From the IMG/VR virus record IMGVR_UViG_3300032579_000011, positions 14,899 to 78,898 of that record: DNA of 64,000 nt. The stretch is one strand, 5' to 3'. Positions 37,309-47,985 of the stretch are shown one piece after another. The notes under the pieces are model-generated. The model was not told the origin of the DNA. It was given only the letters and a program-made list of their open reading frames with translations, and made no database searches. The stretch is from a virus. Every line of letters begins with the position of its first letter. Within the stretch, counting starts at the first letter, position 1. Position numbers and translations under genes: made by a program.

Positions 37309-38055
37309 ATGGAACATAGTAAGCGTCTAACAAGAAAAGAAAAAAGAATCCTTCGTCAGCAAAACGGAAAAGAAAATACAAATCAAGAAAAATTAAATTT
37401 TAATCTTAAACACGTAGAACCATTAACCGAAAATCAAAAACGTTCTTTTGAAGCCTATCAACAAGGCAAAAATTTAATGCTTCACGGGATTGCTGGAACG
37501 GGTAAGAGCTTCATATCTTTATATCTAAGTTTGAACCAGATATTATCCGAAAACAGCGTTTACAAAAAGCTTGTTATTGTTAGAAGCGTTGTTCCAACAA
37601 GAGATATGGGATTCCTACCCGGAAGTCCTAAAGAAAAGGCCAAAGTTTATGAATCTCCTTATTATGCGATATGTTCTGAATTATTTGGAAGAGGAGATGC
37701 CTATGATTACCTCAAAAACAAGAACCTTGTTGAGTTTATATCAACTTCTTTCATACGCGGTGTTACTCTTAATGATTGTATTATTGTCGTTGATGAAATA
37801 GCTAATCTAACTCTCCACGAGCTTGATTCTGTAATTACTCGTGTTGGTAAAAATTGTAAAATTATATTCTCTGGAGACTTTAGACAATCTGATTTCACTA
37901 AAGATCAAGAAAAGAATGGTCTCAACGATTTCATGCGTATTATTAAAAGAATGAAATCTTTTGAATTCATAGATTTTCAACGCGAGGATATTGTTAGATC
38001 AAAAATGGTAAAAGATTATATTATATCAAAAGAAGAATTAAGAATTGTCACGTAA
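37309..38055 (+). CDS. phoH: PhoH-like ATPase
   Basis: GIAGTGKS, FIRGVT, VVDE, TRVG, SGDFRQSD, DIVRS. Confidence 0.92.
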   Translation: MEHSKRLTRKEKRILRQQNGKENTNQEKLNFNLKHVEPLTENQKRSFEAYQQGKNLMLHGIAGTGKSFISLYLSLNQILSENSVYKKLVIVRSVVPTRDMGFLPGSPKEKAKVYESPYYAICSELFGRGDAYDYLKNKNLVEFISTSFIRGVTLNDCIIVVDEIANLTLHELDSVITRVGKNCKIIFSGDFRQSDFTKDQEKNGLNDFMRIIKRMKSFEFIDFQREDIVRSKMVKDYIISKEELRIVT

Positions 38056-38707
38056 AATATTCAAACATAATTTTGTACCATTCGTCGAATTAAAAACCGA
38101 AAATATTAACGGGCGGCGCCACTACGTGCTGCCCGATGGCGTCACTAAACTTAAATCAGTAACAACTATACTAGGCGAAAAATTAGACAAAACTGCATTG
38201 ATTGAGTGGAAGAAAAGAGTCGGTGAAGCTGAAGCTCAAAGAATTTCAACTCAAGCCGCTCGAAGAGGCACAGCCATACATAAAATGGCTGAGAAATATG
38301 TTCTAAACGAAAACAACATATTTGAAAATCAAATGCCTGTTAATATAGAATCATTTGATCCTATTAAACAAATACTAGATAAACATGTTGATAATTTATT
38401 CGGCGTTGAGTTACCTCTTTATTCTAAATCTCTTAAGTGTGCCGGTCGAACAGACTTGGTTGGTGAATATGATGGCGTTTTGTCTATCATAGATTTCAAA
38501 ACTTCAAGGAAACCTAAGAAATTAGAATGGATCGAAAACTATTTACTTCAATCCACAGTTTATTCCATGATGTTTGAATGGACGTATAAAATAGCAGTTC
38601 CACAAATCGTTATTATTATCACAGTTGATAATGAAAAAACGCCCCAAGTATTTAAACTGGAGCGTTCTCAATATGTTAAAAGAGTGTTGGAAGTGTTTAC
38701 TTCATAA
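38045..38707 (+). CDS. PD-(D/E)XK exonuclease (Cas4-like phage exonuclease)
   Basis: SVTTIL, RGTAIH, AGRTD, IDFKTS, Y.LQ...Y. Confidence 0.85.
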   Translation: MSRKIFKHNFVPFVELKTENINGRRHYVLPDGVTKLKSVTTILGEKLDKTALIEWKKRVGEAEAQRISTQAARRGTAIHKMAEKYVLNENNIFENQMPVNIESFDPIKQILDKHVDNLFGVELPLYSKSLKCAGRTDLVGEYDGVLSIIDFKTSRKPKKLEWIENYLLQSTVYSMMFEWTYKIAVPQIVIIITVDNEKTPQVFKLERSQYVKRVLEVFTS

Positions 38708-40294: not shown

Positions 40295-40322
40295 AAAAAA
40301 GGGCGGGGATGAACCCACCCTT
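40295..40322 (-). terminator. Rho-independent terminator after DUF2828-type gene
   Basis: AAGGGTGGG-TTCATC-CCCGCCCTT-TTTT on minus strand. Confidence 0.8.
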
Positions 40323-40332
40323 AATTAGAAAT

Positions 40333-41766
40333 TTAGAAGTCGTAGCGATCAGACATTAATGTCTTAAGCATGATCGCCTCCGGAGTAAAGTCCTCCAAAT
40401 CAGCAGCCAACACCGACTTAACGATAGTTGGAGAGAAACCAGAAACAAGAGCAACGCCTCGTTCATCGAACTTAACAGGCACATTTTCATGTGCATTCAA
40501 GTTCCAGAAAACGATGTTAGGCATATTGTAAGCATGATAGATATACTTACGAGCAATCATTTCCATAGCAGAGTCATCGTGAGTAGTGCACTGATCAAAC
40601 TGCATGTCCGAAAGAATCAGCAGCATTGCAGGCATTTCTGACTGAGGAACATTACCTTCAATTGCAGTGAGAAGGATTTTATCCAGCGCGAGATGCAGGT
40701 TAGTGTTCATGTCCCACTTCGAAGTTACCATCTGCTTAACCTTATCGAGGATGTTACCACGAAGATGAAGCAGCTCAGGCTTGCCAGAGAAAGTCAAGAA
40801 CGTATCCTTAAACTTACCAGTGTTCTTTTCAGCAAGGTAAAGACCAAGAGAAACAGAAACGTCAAGGCAAGTTACCTTCGACTTGGAGTTATAGCCACCA
40901 GCAGGTGAAGTCATTGAACCAGAAACGTCAACGAGCGGAAGGATGTTTGCATCACCAACAAAGTTAGGAAGATCATCCCACTGAGCACGAATGTGATCGA
41001 GGTTCGACTGATTATATGACGCATTGTAACCGTAAGGAGAAACACCCTTCAGCACATCATACGGATAAACCGCACCAGCATTGACCTTGACAGTCTTTGC
41101 TACTTCAGGATCCTTCGAAACAAGAGCAGTAGTCCACTCCTTATACTTCTCAGTGTGACGTGAGAAAGCCTTCTTATATCTAGAAGAAGCAAGCGAAGGA
41201 ACATGGTTGAAATTAATTTCATCCCAATTCTTAGCGCACATGTCCTGCTCAACAACCTTGGTCAAGCTAACCAGTGTCTTACGATACTGCTTAGGTGACA
41301 TTCCAAGGAACGAACGAAGTTCAGCGGCTTCCTTACCCTTACGTGGCATCCACTTAGCAGCAAGACCATTCTTGGCTTCAAGAGCATCACGAACCATCGC
41401 AAATGCGATCTGACGCAAATCACCCTTGGTAACAAAGATATCGTCCCAACGTCCAAGCTCGGGAACACGCTTCAAAAGACGCTCCGCATATGCAGGATCA
41501 TGATCACAAGCATATTCTAGAATATCCCGGAAAATCTTACGCTCACCAGCGCCTCCGCGAATATCACGCGCCCAAAGAACAACACGGCCAGCCAATTCCT
41601 TATCTTGAACATAAGCTGCCGTAAAGTCAGGAATTACGTTCTTACCGCGAGATGCACCAATCTTATAGAAAAGATCAGTAACTGAATTGGCAGTAGACTT
41701 ACGAGCCTTCATACCATTAGTAGTACGAGCAGTCTGGTTCTTAACGGCATTAACAAATGTTGACAT
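40333..41766 (-). CDS. DUF2828-type TROVE-like/vWA protein (Ro60-related architecture)
   Basis: RDIRGGAGER, GRWDD, AAKWMPR, VPSLA; vWA MIDAS DVSGSM, TN, SDMQFD, VFWNL, SGFSP. Confidence 0.82.
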   Translation of the reverse strand: MSTFVNAVKNQTARTTNGMKARKSTANSVTDLFYKIGASRGKNVIPDFTAAYVQDKELAGRVVLWARDIRGGAGERKIFRDILEYACDHDPAYAERLLKRVPELGRWDDIFVTKGDLRQIAFAMVRDALEAKNGLAAKWMPRKGKEAAELRSFLGMSPKQYRKTLVSLTKVVEQDMCAKNWDEINFNHVPSLASSRYKKAFSRHTEKYKEWTTALVSKDPEVAKTVKVNAGAVYPYDVLKGVSPYGYNASYNQSNLDHIRAQWDDLPNFVGDANILPLVDVSGSMTSPAGGYNSKSKVTCLDVSVSLGLYLAEKNTGKFKDTFLTFSGKPELLHLRGNILDKVKQMVTSKWDMNTNLHLALDKILLTAIEGNVPQSEMPAMLLILSDMQFDQCTTHDDSAMEMIARKYIYHAYNMPNIVFWNLNAHENVPVKFDERGVALVSGFSPTIVKSVLAADLEDFTPEAIMLKTLMSDRYDF

Positions 41767-41787: not shown

Positions 41788-41845
41788 ACAGATTGAACTT
41801 TTTTCTATTTTGCATATAGATTTTATTATTGCTGAACTCAATCTT
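41788..41845 (-). ncRNA. CAGCA-motif RNA unit 3 with Cys(GCA) anticodon-loop mimic
   Basis: AGATTGA/TCAATCT stem, TTCAGCAA, TCTAT-ATGCAAA-ATAGA. Confidence 0.65.
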
Positions 41846-41851
41846 AATTAA

Positions 41852-41917
41852 ACAGTATCACTTTTTGCTTTTTTTGATTACAAGTCAAATGCATTTTGGA
41901 TTGCTGAAATGATACTT
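41852..41917 (-). ncRNA. CAGCA-motif RNA unit 2 with Thr(TGT) anticodon-loop mimic
   Basis: AGTATCA/TGATACT stem, TTCAGCAA, TTTGA-CTTGTAA-TCAAA. Confidence 0.7.
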
Positions 41918-41924
41918 AAACTTA

Positions 41925-42145
41925 TCAGGTTAGTCGCGGTATTGTGGTCCACCATCCTCCGAAGAGGTTCAGGTTATTACGAGTAACCCCGAAGGATTCT
42001 CGACCACCCAGTGTTCATCAAAGTTCCCCCATCTTTCGATGGCTAAATCTCAGAAGGAAAGTCAAGCTTTCCAGAAGATGCCTCTAATCACTGCCTTCGC
42101 TGTTATCGCGATTTCAAACATAGGTTGTGTGCTGTATCTAACCTT
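41925..42145 (-). ncRNA. CAGCA-motif RNA unit 1 (about 220 nt, multi-hairpin)
   Basis: AGGTTAG/CTAACCT stem, TACAGCAC, GAAA and two TTCG tetraloop hairpins. Confidence 0.7.
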
Positions 42146-42159
42146 AATTCTTATCATTT

Positions 42160-42188
42160 ATAATACCGCGACTTAAGTTAAAAGTCAA
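42160..42188 (-). promoter_or_regulatory. sigma70-like promoter for ncRNA array and DUF2828-type gene
   Basis: TTGACT-N17-TATTAT. Confidence 0.7.
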
Positions 42189-42198
42189 GTAGTATTTT

Positions 42199-42272
42199 TG
42201 GTGCTTCTGCGTGGAATCAAACCACGGTAGATCGATTATCAGTCGATTATTCTATCATTGAATTACAGAAGC
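42199..42272 (-). tRNA. tRNA-Ile(GAT)
   Basis: ATCGA-CTGATAA-TCGAT; CCA; atypical D and T loops. Confidence 0.8.
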
Positions 42273-42278
42273 ATTAAA

Positions 42279-42301
42279 TGGTGCCGGATGAGAGATTCGA
42301 A
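42279..42301 (-). pseudogene. 3' fragment of a broken tRNA
   Basis: TTCGAATCTCTCATCCGGCACCA; acceptor complementary to the 5' fragment at 42540-42567. Confidence 0.7.
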
Positions 42302-42304
42302 CCG

Positions 42305-42453
42305 CCTAAAATCTCATTTATTATATTTAGACCCTAAAAACGAATATCTTATAAAGACAGATATTAATAAAATTATAAATGCATCAAACCAAAACAATAT
42401 ATATGTAATTGTTATTGGCAAAAAACACATTAATTTAGAGTCAATTAAAGAAA
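42305..42453 (+). pseudogene. Remnant of PD-(D/E)XK endonuclease C-terminus
   Basis: LYLDPKNEYLI...KI...NQN.I.V matches IYLDPKNDYLI...KINKVCDQNKIKV of 45392-46027. Confidence 0.65.
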
Positions 42454-42527
42454 TGGTAGGGGATAGAGGTAACGCTCCTCTTCTTCCTGCTTGTAAAACA
42501 GGCACTCTACTTTTAAGTTAATCCCCC
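42454..42527 (-). tRNA. tRNA-Val(TAC)
   Basis: CCTGT-TTTACAA-GCAGG; atypical T loop AGCGTTA; CCA. Confidence 0.75.
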
Positions 42528-43490: not shown

Positions 43491-43571
43491 TGGTGCGCCT
43501 GGCAAGACTTGAACTTGCACCCGAAGACCAGTTTCTAAGACTGGCGTGTCTACCTATTCCACCACAAGCGC
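43491..43571 (-). tRNA. tRNA-Leu(TAG)
   Basis: CCAGT-CTTAGAA-ACTGG; CCA. Confidence 0.88.
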
Positions 43572-44066
43572 AGATTTTCTTTTTCTCCATGTCATTGTAA
43601 ATGAATGGCAATTTGGGCAAAGACCTTCTAAATTATTTCTATCGTTATTATTCGTATTGCCATCTTTATGTTCTAATTCAAGTTTTATGGGTTGACCTAA
43701 CCACTCAAATATTCCACAGTTATTACATTTAAAGTTTTGTTCTTCAAAAACTCTTCTTCTTTTTTGACCAGAACTAAGATCTTCAAACATTTTTGACAAA
43801 TACAAATTTTCTCTTTTCTTTTTTACTTTTTCTGATATACGGTTTCTAGTTTCTTCATTTATTGCGGAAAGGCGTTTTTCAATATGTTCTTGACTTTGTT
43901 TCTTTCCTTTATTGGATGGAGATCTTCCAATTAATTTTTCACTAACTTTTAAATTAATTTCTTTTCTTTTTGAGAAAGTAGAAAAAGCCGAAGCACATTT
44001 TTTACAACAAAATCTTCCAGAACCATATTCACCTGAATGAGTTTCTTTACAATATTCACATAACAT
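43554..44066 (-). CDS. HNH endonuclease
   Basis: CNNC...LELEHKDGNTNNN.RNNLEGLCPNCH; late promoter at 44100-44107. Confidence 0.88.
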   Translation of the reverse strand: MLCEYCKETHSGEYGSGRFCCKKCASAFSTFSKRKEINLKVSEKLIGRSPSNKGKKQSQEHIEKRLSAINEETRNRISEKVKKKRENLYLSKMFEDLSSGQKRRRVFEEQNFKCNNCGIFEWLGQPIKLELEHKDGNTNNNDRNNLEGLCPNCHSFTMTWRKRKSALVVE

Positions 44067-45324: not shown

Positions 45325-45401
45325 TGGTGCTGAAGAAAGGACTCGAACCCTCAACCTTCGCATTACAAGTGCGCTGCTCTACCAATTAAAGCTACTTCAG
45401 C
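45325..45401 (-). tRNA. tRNA-Thr(TGT)
   Basis: CTTGTAA loop; CCA. Confidence 0.88.
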
Positions 45402-46027
45402 AATTTAATTATTTCATTCCAACATAGTTGGTTCTTATTCAAGATTAACACTTTAATCTTATTTTGATCACAAACTTTATTTATTTTTTCTTCATCAGAA
45501 AATCCTAAACTGGGATTATTGTTATTGATCAAATAATCGTTTTTTGGGTCCAAATATATATTATAATCAATCAAATACATATCTGGAGTATATGTTCTAT
45601 GCTTACCATTTCTATCAACATAATTAAATTTTTTACAAGTATCCCATCTTATATTATTCTCGTCTAATGATTGTGCAACAATCAATTCATATGTTGAACC
45701 AAGAATTTTATCTTTATATCTTATTCTTCTAGATTGTGAAACGCCACCCAATCCTCTTTCTTTAGCAAGCTTACTCATCTTTATTTTTACAGATTCTGTT
45801 TGACCTCTTTTTCGATTTGTATCAGCTATTCTTTCTAAAGCTTCTTTGGATATTTTAGGTTTTTGTAAACCTAATTCTTTAGCCTTTTTATATTGATTAG
45901 AATGTTTTCTGATGCTAAAATCATAAATTCTAATTTTACGATCGGGATTTAATTTACACATTCTTTGATGATTTCTCAAAGAATTATTATTTTTACATTC
46001 TTTATTACAAAAAGTACAAAGTAGCAT
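45392..46027 (-). CDS. PD-(D/E)XK endonuclease with N-terminal zinc finger (paralog of 26416-27102)
   Basis: CTFC...LRNHQRMC; STYE, YTPDM, YLDPKN; late promoter at 46055-46062. Confidence 0.82.
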   Translation of the reverse strand: MLLCTFCNKECKNNNSLRNHQRMCKLNPDRKIRIYDFSIRKHSNQYKKAKELGLQKPKISKEALERIADTNRKRGQTESVKIKMSKLAKERGLGGVSQSRRIRYKDKILGSTYELIVAQSLDENNIRWDTCKKFNYVDRNGKHRTYTPDMYLIDYNIYLDPKNDYLINNNNPSLGFSDEEKINKVCDQNKIKVLILNKNQLCWNEIIKLLK

Positions 46028-46668: not shown

Positions 46669-47253
46669 TTATACGTTAGCGAGAACCTTTTGCGTCTTGA
46701 AGCAAAACCAACAAGTAGAAGGTGTTACTCCGACTTTCTCGTTAACGAGATGGTCTCTAACAGCCTTCATAATTCCTTGATAAGGATCTGCGAAATCGTG
46801 TCCAGCCAACAAACCACCAACTTTAACTTTTGGAAACCAAGCCAAAAGGTCTTTACGAAAAGATTCATAATCGTGAGAAGCGTCAATAAAGACAAAATCC
46901 AAAGACTCATCTTCGTAAAGACTAGCCGATTCTGTGCTATCTCCCTTAATTGCTTCGTAATGACCAACAACAGGCCTCATATTATCCTTAAAAACACCCA
47001 ACAAACGACCCGCCTTATTGTCCGGATCAAACATCTGACCAGGTTCGATAACAGATCCGGTAAAATTATCGATACAATCTAACTTAATATCTTTACCGCT
47101 ATTGATAATTTCTACAGCCAAAAAAGCAGAGCTCTGACCTTTCCAAGTACCTATTTCAACGAAATGAGCCTTGTCGGGCGCAGTATCAACTGCATACTTA
47201 AACATATCCGGATAATTAAACCAACCTTCAACGTTCTGATAAAAATGTTCCAT
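46669..47253 (-). CDS. Class I SAM-dependent methyltransferase (Methyltransf_24-like)
   Basis: VEIGTWKGQS, LDFVFIDASHDYE, GGLLAGHD. Confidence 0.88.
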   Translation of the reverse strand: MEHFYQNVEGWFNYPDMFKYAVDTAPDKAHFVEIGTWKGQSSAFLAVEIINSGKDIKLDCIDNFTGSVIEPGQMFDPDNKAGRLLGVFKDNMRPVVGHYEAIKGDSTESASLYEDESLDFVFIDASHDYESFRKDLLAWFPKVKVGGLLAGHDFADPYQGIMKAVRDHLVNEKVGVTPSTCWFCFKTQKVLANV

Positions 47254-47265
47254 ATATAACTCCTA

Positions 47266-47937
47266 TTAATCCGTATCCATAACGATATCGCCCGATACCG
47301 CAATTCTATAATCATCTGAAGTGTAGAAAGGGTTAACTGAATGACCTAATCCTTTGGGGAACAGACAAATTATACCTTCATAAGGATGATCGACCGGAAT
47401 AGGATGACTTCTAACTTGACCAAGAATATCTGTGTAATAAAAGACAAACATTGAAGCACACTTAAGAGTGGCCTTTGGAAAAACCGCTATTTCATCTTGA
47501 ATATTATAAGGTATCTTCGTCCAGATAACGAAAGAATAAACACCACCATGAATATGATGAGGATGAAATTCGTGCTTCTTTTGGAAGTTAGCCCAAACGT
47601 CTTTAAACTTAAACCGTCTTGGATGCGAAGCAACGTTAACTACTTCGTTGATAAAATGCGGTTGCGATCTATGATTGTGTAAATCTATCAAGCTATTAAT
47701 ATAATCCAACAAAACTGGAGAAAGTTCTTTTGTAAAGTCATATTCTCTTGAAATGTTTGCAGTAAGTTTATAACCAGCTTCTACAGAACCTTCAAACTCT
47801 TTCTCAACAGCGCCGTCGGTTACTTCACGAACCTTAGACATTATATCTTCAGGAACTCTATGAAATACAACACCGTTATTAGGGAAAGTATAGAATAAGG
47901 CTTGATCGCCTTGTAAATTAGAAATTTGATCTGCCAT
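47266..47937 (-). CDS. 2OG-Fe(II) oxygenase-like protein
   Basis: WANFQKKHEFHPHHIH, FP..L.HSVNPFY, RIAVSG. Confidence 0.8.
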   Translation of the reverse strand: MADQISNLQGDQALFYTFPNNGVVFHRVPEDIMSKVREVTDGAVEKEFEGSVEAGYKLTANISREYDFTKELSPVLLDYINSLIDLHNHRSQPHFINEVVNVASHPRRFKFKDVWANFQKKHEFHPHHIHGGVYSFVIWTKIPYNIQDEIAVFPKATLKCASMFVFYYTDILGQVRSHPIPVDHPYEGIICLFPKGLGHSVNPFYTSDDYRIAVSGDIVMDTD

Positions 47938-47985
47938 AATTTGTTCACCTTTAAGTATATTGATCAATATTATTATTTATACGAT

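What the first reader, a model, noticed from the sequence alone, without database searches (positions are those of the whole stretch)
41925..42145. Large ~220-nt cargo RNA inside the same CAGCA handle
Seen: unit 1 encloses a GC-richer domain closed by TCGCG/CGCGA with hairpins GGAAAG/CTTTCC, CCATC-GAAA-GATGG, AATCC-TTCG-GGGTT and CCTC-TTCG-GAGG. UUCG and GNRA tetraloops read correctly on the minus strand. Inference: a functional structured RNA showing the handle can carry unrelated payloads, such as a scaffold or rRNA-like decoy.
Basis: partly seen in the sequence, partly recalled or inferred. Interest (0 to 1): 0.7.

Follow-up and report, generated by a model that had tools for sequence, protein, structure and literature searches.

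The report
Phage Ro60-partner RNA, large cargo
A 219-base folded non-coding RNA in a lake phage is one of three RNAs that share a short conserved "handle" and sit just upstream of a Ro60-like protein gene; the same layout recurs in all 162 related phage loci scanned and in phages of six other host groups, pointing to an apparently undescribed branch of the Ro60/Y-RNA type of RNA-protein particle.

Summary
Window 42144..41926 (minus strand) is a 219-nt unit. It has a 7-bp terminal stem (AGGUUAG/CUAACCU), AUA-CAGCA after the 5' arm, G after the 3' arm, and about 195 nt of structured insert.

All four named hairpins are present. Covariation in three diverged homologues supports the core fold. It does not support the proposed TCGCG/CGCGA closure, which is better read as a local hairpin.

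The unit is the first of three handle RNAs in one operon: promoter, U1, U2, U3, a 477-aa DUF2828/DUF7788 gene, terminator. The modelled protein matches only Ro60/TROVE structures over its full length.

A covariance model of the handle gave 112 of 112 significant hits on the gene strand, directly upstream of the homologous gene, in 80 loci that were not training rows (some are the same contigs as training loci). The handle also flanks the gene in E. coli, Listeria, Mycobacterium, Campylobacter, Enterococcus, Vibrio and cyanobacterial phages.

Cargos differ widely: short hairpins, YrlA-like tRNA mimics, and about ten recurrent larger domains. Lake metatranscriptome contigs cover U1 alone.

Best reading: a Y-RNA-like partner of a Ro60-like protein, with the handle as binding site and the cargo as effector. 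The cargo's role is unknown. The handle also resembles Dictyostelium Class I RNAs, but below Rfam's threshold. Other first-reader notes of this scan flagged the same operon.

The parts
42160..42188 (-). Sigma-70-type promoter TTGACT-17-TATTAT. The predicted start lies about 8 nt before U1.
   Evidence: 10 of 12 matches; sequence
41926..42144 (-). U1, the 219-nt handle RNA with the large cargo (the finding)
42130..42144 (-). U1 handle, 5' half: arm AGGUUAG (42144..42138), AUA, CAGCA (42134..42130)
41926..41933 (-). U1 handle, 3' half: arm CUAACCU (41933..41927) plus terminal G (41926)
   Evidence: The X1 RNA contig ends here.
42097..42111 (-). Hairpin UCGC-GAUAACA-GCGA, with a compensatory U-A to G-C change in L088
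42014..42072 (-). 59-nt insert that L172, L091 and L088 lack. It holds the GGAAAG/CUUUCC and CCAUC-GAAA-GAUGG hairpins.
   Evidence: No comparative sequence available. Spanned by the X2, X3 and X4 RNA contigs.
41944..42007 (-). Three-way junction: helix GUGGUC/GACCAC enclosing the two UUCG hairpins and the invariant linker GUAAUAACCUGA (41980..41969)
   Evidence: compensatory changes in each helix
41853..41916 (-). U2, a short handle RNA (AGUAUCA.../...UGAUACUG)
   Evidence: R1, 44.2 bits, E 5e-7; RF01414, 23.0 bits
41789..41844 (-). U3, a short handle RNA (AGAUUGA.../...UCAAUCUG). It ends 22 nt before the ATG.
   Evidence: R1, 54.8 bits, E 3e-9; RF01414, 20.9 bits
40333..41766 (-). 477-aa Ro60-like protein (DUF2828 + DUF7788/vWA, with MIDAS motif DxSxS)
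40299..40322 (-). Intrinsic terminator closing the operon

Best explanation
U1 is a discrete non-coding RNA. It is the first of three 'handle' RNAs transcribed from their own promoter together with a phage Ro60-like protein (HEAT-repeat ring plus vWA domain).

The handle has three parts: a 7-bp stem joining the RNA's two ends, an unpaired U-A/U-CAGCA-A next to the 5' arm, and CUG(U) at the 3' end. Inferred: the handle is the module the Ro60-like protein recognises, as the conserved terminal stem of a Y RNA is recognised by Ro60.

The part enclosed by the handle is an exchangeable effector. In U1 it is a roughly 195-nt multi-helix domain. Inferred: it positions or tethers the protein to some other RNA or enzyme, as Y-RNA effector domains do. 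Which partner is unknown.

Shown here: the fold, the handle's conservation, its strict linkage to the gene, and the protein's Ro60-like fold. Inferred: binding, and what the cargo does.
For: Protein:
- phrog_850 'RNA-binding protein'; Pfam DUF2828 + DUF7788.
- The AF2 model (pLDDT 76) has 13 top PDB matches, all Ro60/TROVE and full length: phage phiLo Ro60 at E 5e-8 and TM 0.56-0.60, plus Rsr and Xenopus and human Ro60.
- MIDAS residues are invariant.
- UniRef names several family members 'TROVE domain-containing'.

Linkage of handle and gene:
- 131 units in 54 unique upstream regions, against 1-5 in shuffles, 3 on the antisense strand and 4 in coding sequence.
- CM R1 gives 112 of 112 hits on the gene strand, upstream of the gene, in 80 loci not used as training rows.
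- In the window R1 hits only U2 and U3 at E < 0.01.

Handle stem: 97.7% paired, and all 7 pairs covary across 55 units from phages of diverse hosts.

The same handle lies beside the gene in:
- the cyanophage BUCT-ZZ01;
- a Felixounavirus, mycobacteriophage LeBron, Listeria phage LP-125, Campylobacter phage CP81 and an Enterococcus phage;
- Vibrio phage ValKK3.

Two variants show the handle is a module:
- In Cronobacter phage S13 it is circularly permuted inside tRNA-like genes.
- Some cargos match Rfam YrlA: L097 at 42 bits and LeBron at 39.8 bits over the whole model.

U1 itself: the fold is supported by covariation. RNA-library contigs from four lake or freshwater studies cover U1 and not its neighbours, and one ends exactly at 41926.

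Operon signals.

Literature: Ro60 homologues of phages bind RNAs encoded beside them (PMC12135203). The Ro60-like gp130 of the Felixounavirus Bas63 was proposed to use unidentified Y RNAs among its tRNA genes (PMC11482910).
Against: No binding was tested.

The handle lacks the GNCGAA/bulged-helix motif of known Y RNAs. U1 has no Rfam Y_RNA or YrlA hit.

The protein does not reach Pfam TROVE by sequence.

The U1 cargo has only three diverged homologues, and its 59-nt insert has no comparative sequence.

Contigs in RNA libraries cannot exclude DNA carry-over or define RNA ends.

In ValKK3 the handle wraps the gene's own RBS. At least some copies may therefore act in cis.
Confidence: 0.68

Rival explanations
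1. The units are cis-acting leader elements of the DUF2828 mRNA. They would be operators through which the protein represses its own translation, not free RNAs.
For: In most loci the last unit ends 12-21 nt before the ATG. In ValKK3 a mini-unit encloses the RBS and start codon.
Against: In the Felixounavirus, LeBron, S13 and L174 the units lie downstream of the gene or among tRNAs. Two to six units with large, varied cargos are more than an operator needs. RNA contigs cover U1 alone. The two roles can coexist.
Confidence: 0.12
2. The handle is recognised by something other than the neighbouring protein. Candidates are a processing nuclease, or a tRNA repair or modification enzyme, that cuts out or acts on RNAs of the tRNA operon. 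On this reading the linkage to DUF2828 reflects shared function only.
For: The units follow tRNA arrays and are spaced like tRNAs. An RtcB-like ligase lies 1.3 kb from the gene in LP-125. Conserved ends (AG...CUGU) could be cleavage signals.
Against: The linkage holds in loci without tRNAs (LeBron; L174). The handle is permuted inside tRNA bodies in S13, where it cannot mark the ends.
Confidence: 0.1
3. U1 is a decayed or expanded tRNA-array remnant, or a repeat with no function of its own.
For: It sits right after tRNA-Ile. Phage tRNA arrays hold pseudo-tRNAs.
Against: Compensatory changes are present. The handle is conserved across distant phages. No tRNA or tmRNA is called in it. It is present in RNA libraries.
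Confidence: 0.04
4. U1 belongs to an already curated RNA family (rRNA fragment or decoy, tmRNA, RNase P, 6S, ribozyme, riboswitch).
For: Its UUCG and GNRA loops and multi-helix shape are typical of such RNAs.
Against: Nothing in Rfam 15 reaches even E = 10 on U1. ARAGORN finds no tmRNA.
Confidence: 0.03

Closest known systems
Bacterial and phage Y RNAs: YrlA (Rfam RF02553), and Yrl1/Yrl2 of Thermus phage phiLo
   Same: Encoded beside, and on the same strand as, a ring-shaped Ro60-type protein with a vWA domain. The 5' and 3' ends pair into a stem. The enclosed domain is modular. In some related loci the enclosed domain is a YrlA-like permuted tRNA mimic. Several RNAs occur per locus.
   Different: The conserved element is UACAGCAA plus a 3' CUGU, not GNCGAA or a bulged helix. 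The protein is the DUF2828 branch, not Pfam TROVE. The U1 cargo is a 195-nt non-tRNA-like domain. No unit reaches the YrlA gathering score.
Dictyostelium Class I RNAs (Rfam RF01414; PMC7919456)
   Same: A short terminal stem starting A-G and closed by C-U. The motif ...UUACAGCAA(U) lies directly after the 5' arm. The middle is variable, the 3' end is CUGU, the length is about 55-60 nt, and there are many copies. RF01414 is the only recurrent non-tRNA Rfam hit on short units: 17-27 bits over the full model in four unrelated phage groups.
   Different: All scores are below the gathering score of 41.5. Class I RNAs are eukaryotic, have DUSE promoters, and their known direct binder is an RRM protein. 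No Dictyostelium DUF2828 protein was seen here. U1 itself is far larger than any Class I RNA.
Stable RNAs of phage tRNA operons (T4 species 1 and 2 RNAs; from my own knowledge)
   Same: Non-tRNA stable RNAs encoded at the end of a phage tRNA cluster.
   Different: T4 is not known to me to carry a DUF2828 gene.

Membership tests
Y RNA (Ro60 partner RNAs) | Encoded next to a Ro60 orthologue, on the same strand | tested here: met
   The gene 22 nt downstream of U3 is Ro60-like by fold. 112 of 112 CM hits lie upstream of it on the same strand.
Y RNA (Ro60 partner RNAs) | 5' and 3' ends pair into a stem that encloses a variable domain | tested here: met
   The 7-bp stem is 97.7% paired and all 7 pairs covary. 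For U1.
Y RNA (Ro60 partner RNAs) | Conserved Ro-binding motif (GNCGAA(N)G, or a bulged helix) in the stem | tested here: not met
   The handle consensus is UAGGAUnnnU[AU]CAGCAA...AUCCUGU. No such motif is present.
Y RNA (Ro60 partner RNAs) | Rfam Y_RNA or YrlA model at or above the gathering score | tested here: not met
   No hit on U1-U3 at E <= 10. Related units give 29-42 bits against a gathering score of 69.
Y RNA (Ro60 partner RNAs) | Physical binding to the Ro60-type protein | not testable with these tools
   Needs EMSA, RIP or co-purification.
Dictyostelium Class I RNA (RF01414) | Terminal stem, ACAGCAA motif after the 5' arm, CUGU 3' end, 42-65 nt | tested here: met
   Met for U2 and U3 and for short units of other phages. 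U1 meets all but the length.
Dictyostelium Class I RNA (RF01414) | Rfam gathering score of 41.5 bits | tested here: not met
   Scores of 23.0, 20.9, 27.3, 23.1, 19.1, 19.7 and 17.1 bits.
Ro60/TROVE proteins (for the neighbouring gene) | HEAT-repeat ring followed by a vWA domain with MIDAS | tested here: met
   Full-length Foldseek matches to Ro60 only. DxSxS is invariant.
Ro60/TROVE proteins (for the neighbouring gene) | Pfam TROVE domain by sequence | tested here: not met
   Only PF11443 and PF25043 are found. There is no PDB hit by sequence.
tRNA / tmRNA | Cloverleaf or tmRNA model | tested here: not met
   Nothing is called in 41789-42198.

The most novel reading that the evidence does not exclude
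The handle RNAs and the DUF2828 proteins form one ancient RNA-protein particle, a sister of Ro60/Y RNA, that spans phages, large viruses of eukaryotes and eukaryotes. Dictyostelid Class I RNAs, so far thought unique to social amoebas and of unknown mechanism, would be its eukaryotic RNA members. The large eukaryotic DUF2828 family would then have unrecognised RNA partners.
Probability: 0.15. Interest if true: 0.9.

Novelty: new variant of a known kind. Interest (0 to 1): 0.72.

Why it matters
Ro60-like DUF2828 proteins are very common. They occur in 710 phage records, and a eukaryotic profile finds 9,682 representatives at 50% identity. No RNA partner has been defined for them in the papers I could search.

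One study found that the Felixounavirus homologue counters a bacterial defence system, and guessed that its Y RNAs hide among the tRNA genes (PMC11482910).

A short, searchable handle now names concrete candidates in cultured phages of E. coli, Listeria, Mycobacterium, Campylobacter and Vibrio. That makes the question testable at the bench.

The handle also appears to be a natural scaffold that carries very different RNA domains. U1 is one of the largest of these, which is of interest for understanding how such particles are aimed at targets.

Tried and rejected
Searches for relatives of U1:
- blastn of the region against 50,697 phage records gave no match.
- Exact-pattern scans of IMG/VR for the U1 cargo gave an identical copy (L084), one chance hit in GC-rich coding DNA (L085), and one real variant (L172).
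- blastn of U1 against 160 loci found only L088 and L091.

Structure readings rejected by comparison:
- The MFE pairing CGCGGUAUU (42170) with AAUACCGCG (41943) is not conserved, and its 5' strand is the promoter spacer.
- The MFE merger of the two UUCG hairpins into one long helix is contradicted by the homologues.

Protein: a sequence search of the PDB gave nothing.

Dictyostelium link:
- No Dictyostelium DUF2828 protein appeared in three lists of 120, nor among 10 AT-rich candidates. These lists are truncated, so this is weak evidence.
- The identity of the Class I pull-down protein DDB_G0281243 could not be found.

Large-virus loci: in 80 loci whose protein is closer to eukaryotic homologues, R1 found units in only two (L174, L236). 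My looser scan there is too noisy to use.

The supplement of Chen et al. 2014 is not held.

The anticodon-arm reading of the short cargos is not picked by MFE folding, so it stays a possibility only.

No ORF longer than 47 aa overlaps the units.

Full report
What is there.
The window is part of an IMG/VR virus record. It carries 26 tRNA genes. On the minus strand, the last tRNA of the array (Ile, 42272..42199) is followed by these features:
- a near-consensus promoter, TTGACT-17-TATTAT, at 42188..42160;
- three non-coding units;
- an ORF of 477 aa at 41766..40333;
- an intrinsic terminator at 40322..40299.

Each unit has the same frame: a terminal stem that begins A-G, then 0-3 nt, then CAGCA(A), then a variable body, then the complementary arm ending C-U, then G(U).
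- U1 is 42144..41926 (219 nt).
- U2 is 41916..41853.
- U3 is 41844..41789.

The observation.
Their loops are UUCG, UUCG and GAAA on the minus strand only. U1 folds better than shuffles: z = -2.46, and 4 of 200 shuffles fold as well.

An identical copy lies on a second viral contig, L084. Diverged copies lie in L088, L091 and L172.

On the four-sequence alignment, a structure of 52 pairs is 99.3% paired. Compensatory changes occur in 7 pairs. No shuffle of 500 reaches this, and slid registers give at most one.

The supported core is:
- the handle stem;
- a hairpin UCGC-GAUAACA-GCGA;
- a helix CAGUG/CACUG, which is CAAUAGA/UCUAUUG in the relatives;
- a three-way junction, GUGGUC/GACCAC, enclosing two hairpins and an invariant linker GUAAUAACCUGA.

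Two details differ from the finding. First, the TCGCG/CGCGA closure is better explained as the local hairpin. Second, the GGAAAG and GAAA hairpins belong to a 59-nt insert (42072..42014) that L172, L091 and L088 lack, so no comparative sequence was available for them. RNA contigs of two near-identical variants do span the insert.

The neighbour.
The ORF is phrog_850 'RNA-binding protein' and Pfam DUF2828 + DUF7788. An AlphaFold2 model built on 22 homologues (pLDDT 76) has 13 best PDB matches. All are Ro60/TROVE proteins matched over the full length: Thermus phage phiLo Ro60 (E 5e-8, TM 0.56-0.60), Deinococcus Rsr, and Xenopus and human Ro60. vWA domains follow further down the list. The MIDAS motif DxSxS is invariant.

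Homologues occur in 710 phage records. A Felixounavirus member, Bas63 gp130, was reported as Ro60-like and as a counter to the ppl defence system. Its authors guessed that its Y RNAs hide among the neighbouring tRNA genes (PMC11482910).

The handle is a family tied to that gene.
I fetched 160 loci of 61-74% protein identity.
- A simple scan found 131 units in 54 unique 600-nt upstream regions. Controls gave 1-5 in shuffles, 3 on the antisense strand and 4 in coding sequence.
- The consensus is (A)UAGGAUnnnU[AU]CAGCAA ... nnnAUCCUG(U).
- In an alignment of 55 short units, the 7-bp stem is 97.7% paired and all seven pairs covary. The units had been picked by a scan that requires pairing. The register and the variety of pair types are therefore the informative part, not the pairing percentage.
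- A covariance model built from that alignment (R1) hits only U3 and U2 at E < 0.01 in the 64-kb window.
- In 80 metagenome loci that were not training rows (some are the same contigs as IMG/VR training loci), R1 gives 112 hits at E <= 0.01. All are on the gene's strand and upstream of the gene.

The same handle stands beside the gene in distant phages:
- three units upstream in Synechococcus phage BUCT-ZZ01;
- four units among the tRNAs downstream in Escherichia phage adrianh;
- three units downstream in mycobacteriophage LeBron;
- three units upstream in Listeria phage LP-125;
- two in Campylobacter phage CP81 and one in an Enterococcus phage;
- a mini-unit that wraps the RBS and start codon in Vibrio phage ValKK3.

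In Cronobacter phage S13 the handle is circularly permuted. It is closed by a tetraloop and set in the place of the anticodon arm of two over-long 'tRNA' genes. The handle is therefore a self-contained module.

Cargos.
Across 162 loci I count 459 units, 250 of them unique. There is a peak at 50-75 nt and a broad spread up to about 300 nt. The 149 unique cargos of 60 nt or more fall into 46 sequence clusters, about ten of them recurrent.

Some cargos are permuted tRNA mimics that match Rfam YrlA below threshold: L097 at 42 bits, and LeBron at 39.8 bits over the whole model with the mismatches in YrlA's outer stems. The U1 class is small: the window (with its identical copy L084), L088, L091 and L172.

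The U1 handle, AGGUUAG/CUAACCU, is identical to that of an unrelated 165-nt class in other phages. This fits exchange of cargos within a kept handle.

Expression.
RNA-library contigs from four lake or freshwater studies lie on U1 and not on the flanking tRNA or ORF at comparable identity. They cover 41926-42101 (starting exactly at U1's 3' end), 41917-42150, 41936-42123 and 42003-42134. Two of them are variants 90-95% alike with extra hairpins. Contigs cannot prove ends or exclude DNA, so this is a supportive hint only.

How it most likely works.
By position, architecture and the fold of the neighbour, these are Y-RNA-like partners of a Ro60-like protein. The handle is the binding site and the enclosed domain is the effector.

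In known systems, Y RNAs gate Ro60 or tether it to enzymes such as PNPase, and YrlA mimics tRNA (PMC4201824, PMC12135203). The company of tRNA arrays, YrlA-like cargos, and in one phage an RtcB-like ligase points to RNA or tRNA surveillance or repair during infection. Binding, and the role of the U1 cargo, are inferred and were not shown.

A cis role for some copies is likely too, as translational autoregulation (ValKK3; the last unit abuts the RBS).

Comparison with what is known.
U1 is not a member of any Rfam family.

Against Y RNAs, the adjacency, terminal stem and modularity are met. The Ro-binding motif and the model score are not.

The only recurrent non-tRNA Rfam match of the short units is RF01414, Dictyostelium Class I RNA. 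Scores are 17-27 bits over the full model in four unrelated phage groups, against a gathering score of 41.5.

The shared features are specific: an A-G start, a short covarying stem, UUACAGCAA right after the 5' arm, a variable middle, a CUGU end, and about 60 nt (PMC7919456).

DUF2828 proteins are widespread in eukaryotes. They occur in plants, green algae, early-diverging fungi, Daphnia, mites, Naegleria, Chromera and Pacmanvirus. I found no Dictyostelium member, and I could not identify the Class I pull-down protein DDB_G0281243. The link stays a lead.

Novelty.
Y-like RNAs beside Ro60 genes in phages are known. This handle, its tie to the DUF2828 branch, its range of cargos and the U1 domain are, as far as the held literature and Rfam show, undescribed. 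Other first-reader notes of this scan flagged the same operon. I reached the reading before seeing them and tested it here.

Noticed in passing
L170:2961-3010 (Vibrio phage ValKK3): A roughly 48-nt mini handle unit encloses the RBS and start codon of its own DUF2828 gene, just after a TTTACA-17-TATAAT promoter. This looks like translational autoregulation.
   Followed up: partly
L002:4896-5141 (Cronobacter phage S13): Two genes annotated tRNA-Ser (121 nt) and tRNA-OTHER (113 nt) are tRNA bodies. Their anticodon arm is replaced by a permuted handle (CAAACUG-loop-AGUUUG-UAU-UCAGCA).
   Followed up: partly
L167:4461-4711 (Mycobacterium phage LeBron): The 'Ro-like' gp53 is followed by three handle units and a terminator. 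The middle unit's cargo matches Rfam YrlA at 39.8 bits.
   Followed up: partly
window 41969-41980 (-): The invariant linker GUAAUAACCUGA inside U1 repeats the 3' handle strand UAACCUG. It could pair with the 5' arm instead, as a possible alternative fold or a relic of duplication.
   Followed up: no
window 42457-42527 (-): A tRNA found by the Rfam model (50.2 bits) but not listed by ARAGORN.
   Followed up: no
window 42273-42456 (-): Between that tRNA and tRNA-Ile lies a very AT-rich stretch (GC about 0.2). It ends in a segment that looks like a tRNA 3' half (GGUUCGAAUC...CACCA).
   Followed up: no
window 43554-44066, 45392-46027 (-): HNH and other endonuclease-like ORFs are interspersed in the tRNA array. 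A methyltransferase-like and a 2OG-Fe(II) oxygenase-like ORF lie at 46669-47967.
   Followed up: no
L168:5855-7066 (Listeria phage LP-125): An RtcB-like RNA ligase gene lies 1.3 kb downstream of the DUF2828 gene. This parallels the bacterial rsr-yrlA-rtcB operons.
   Followed up: no
L174:5690-6190: In a viral contig without tRNAs, whose protein is 37% identical to a green-algal homologue, four or five handle units follow the gene directly.
   Followed up: partly
window 37309-38707 (+): A PhoH-like ATPase and a PD-(D/E)XK nuclease-like ORF lie downstream of the operon on the other strand.
   Followed up: no
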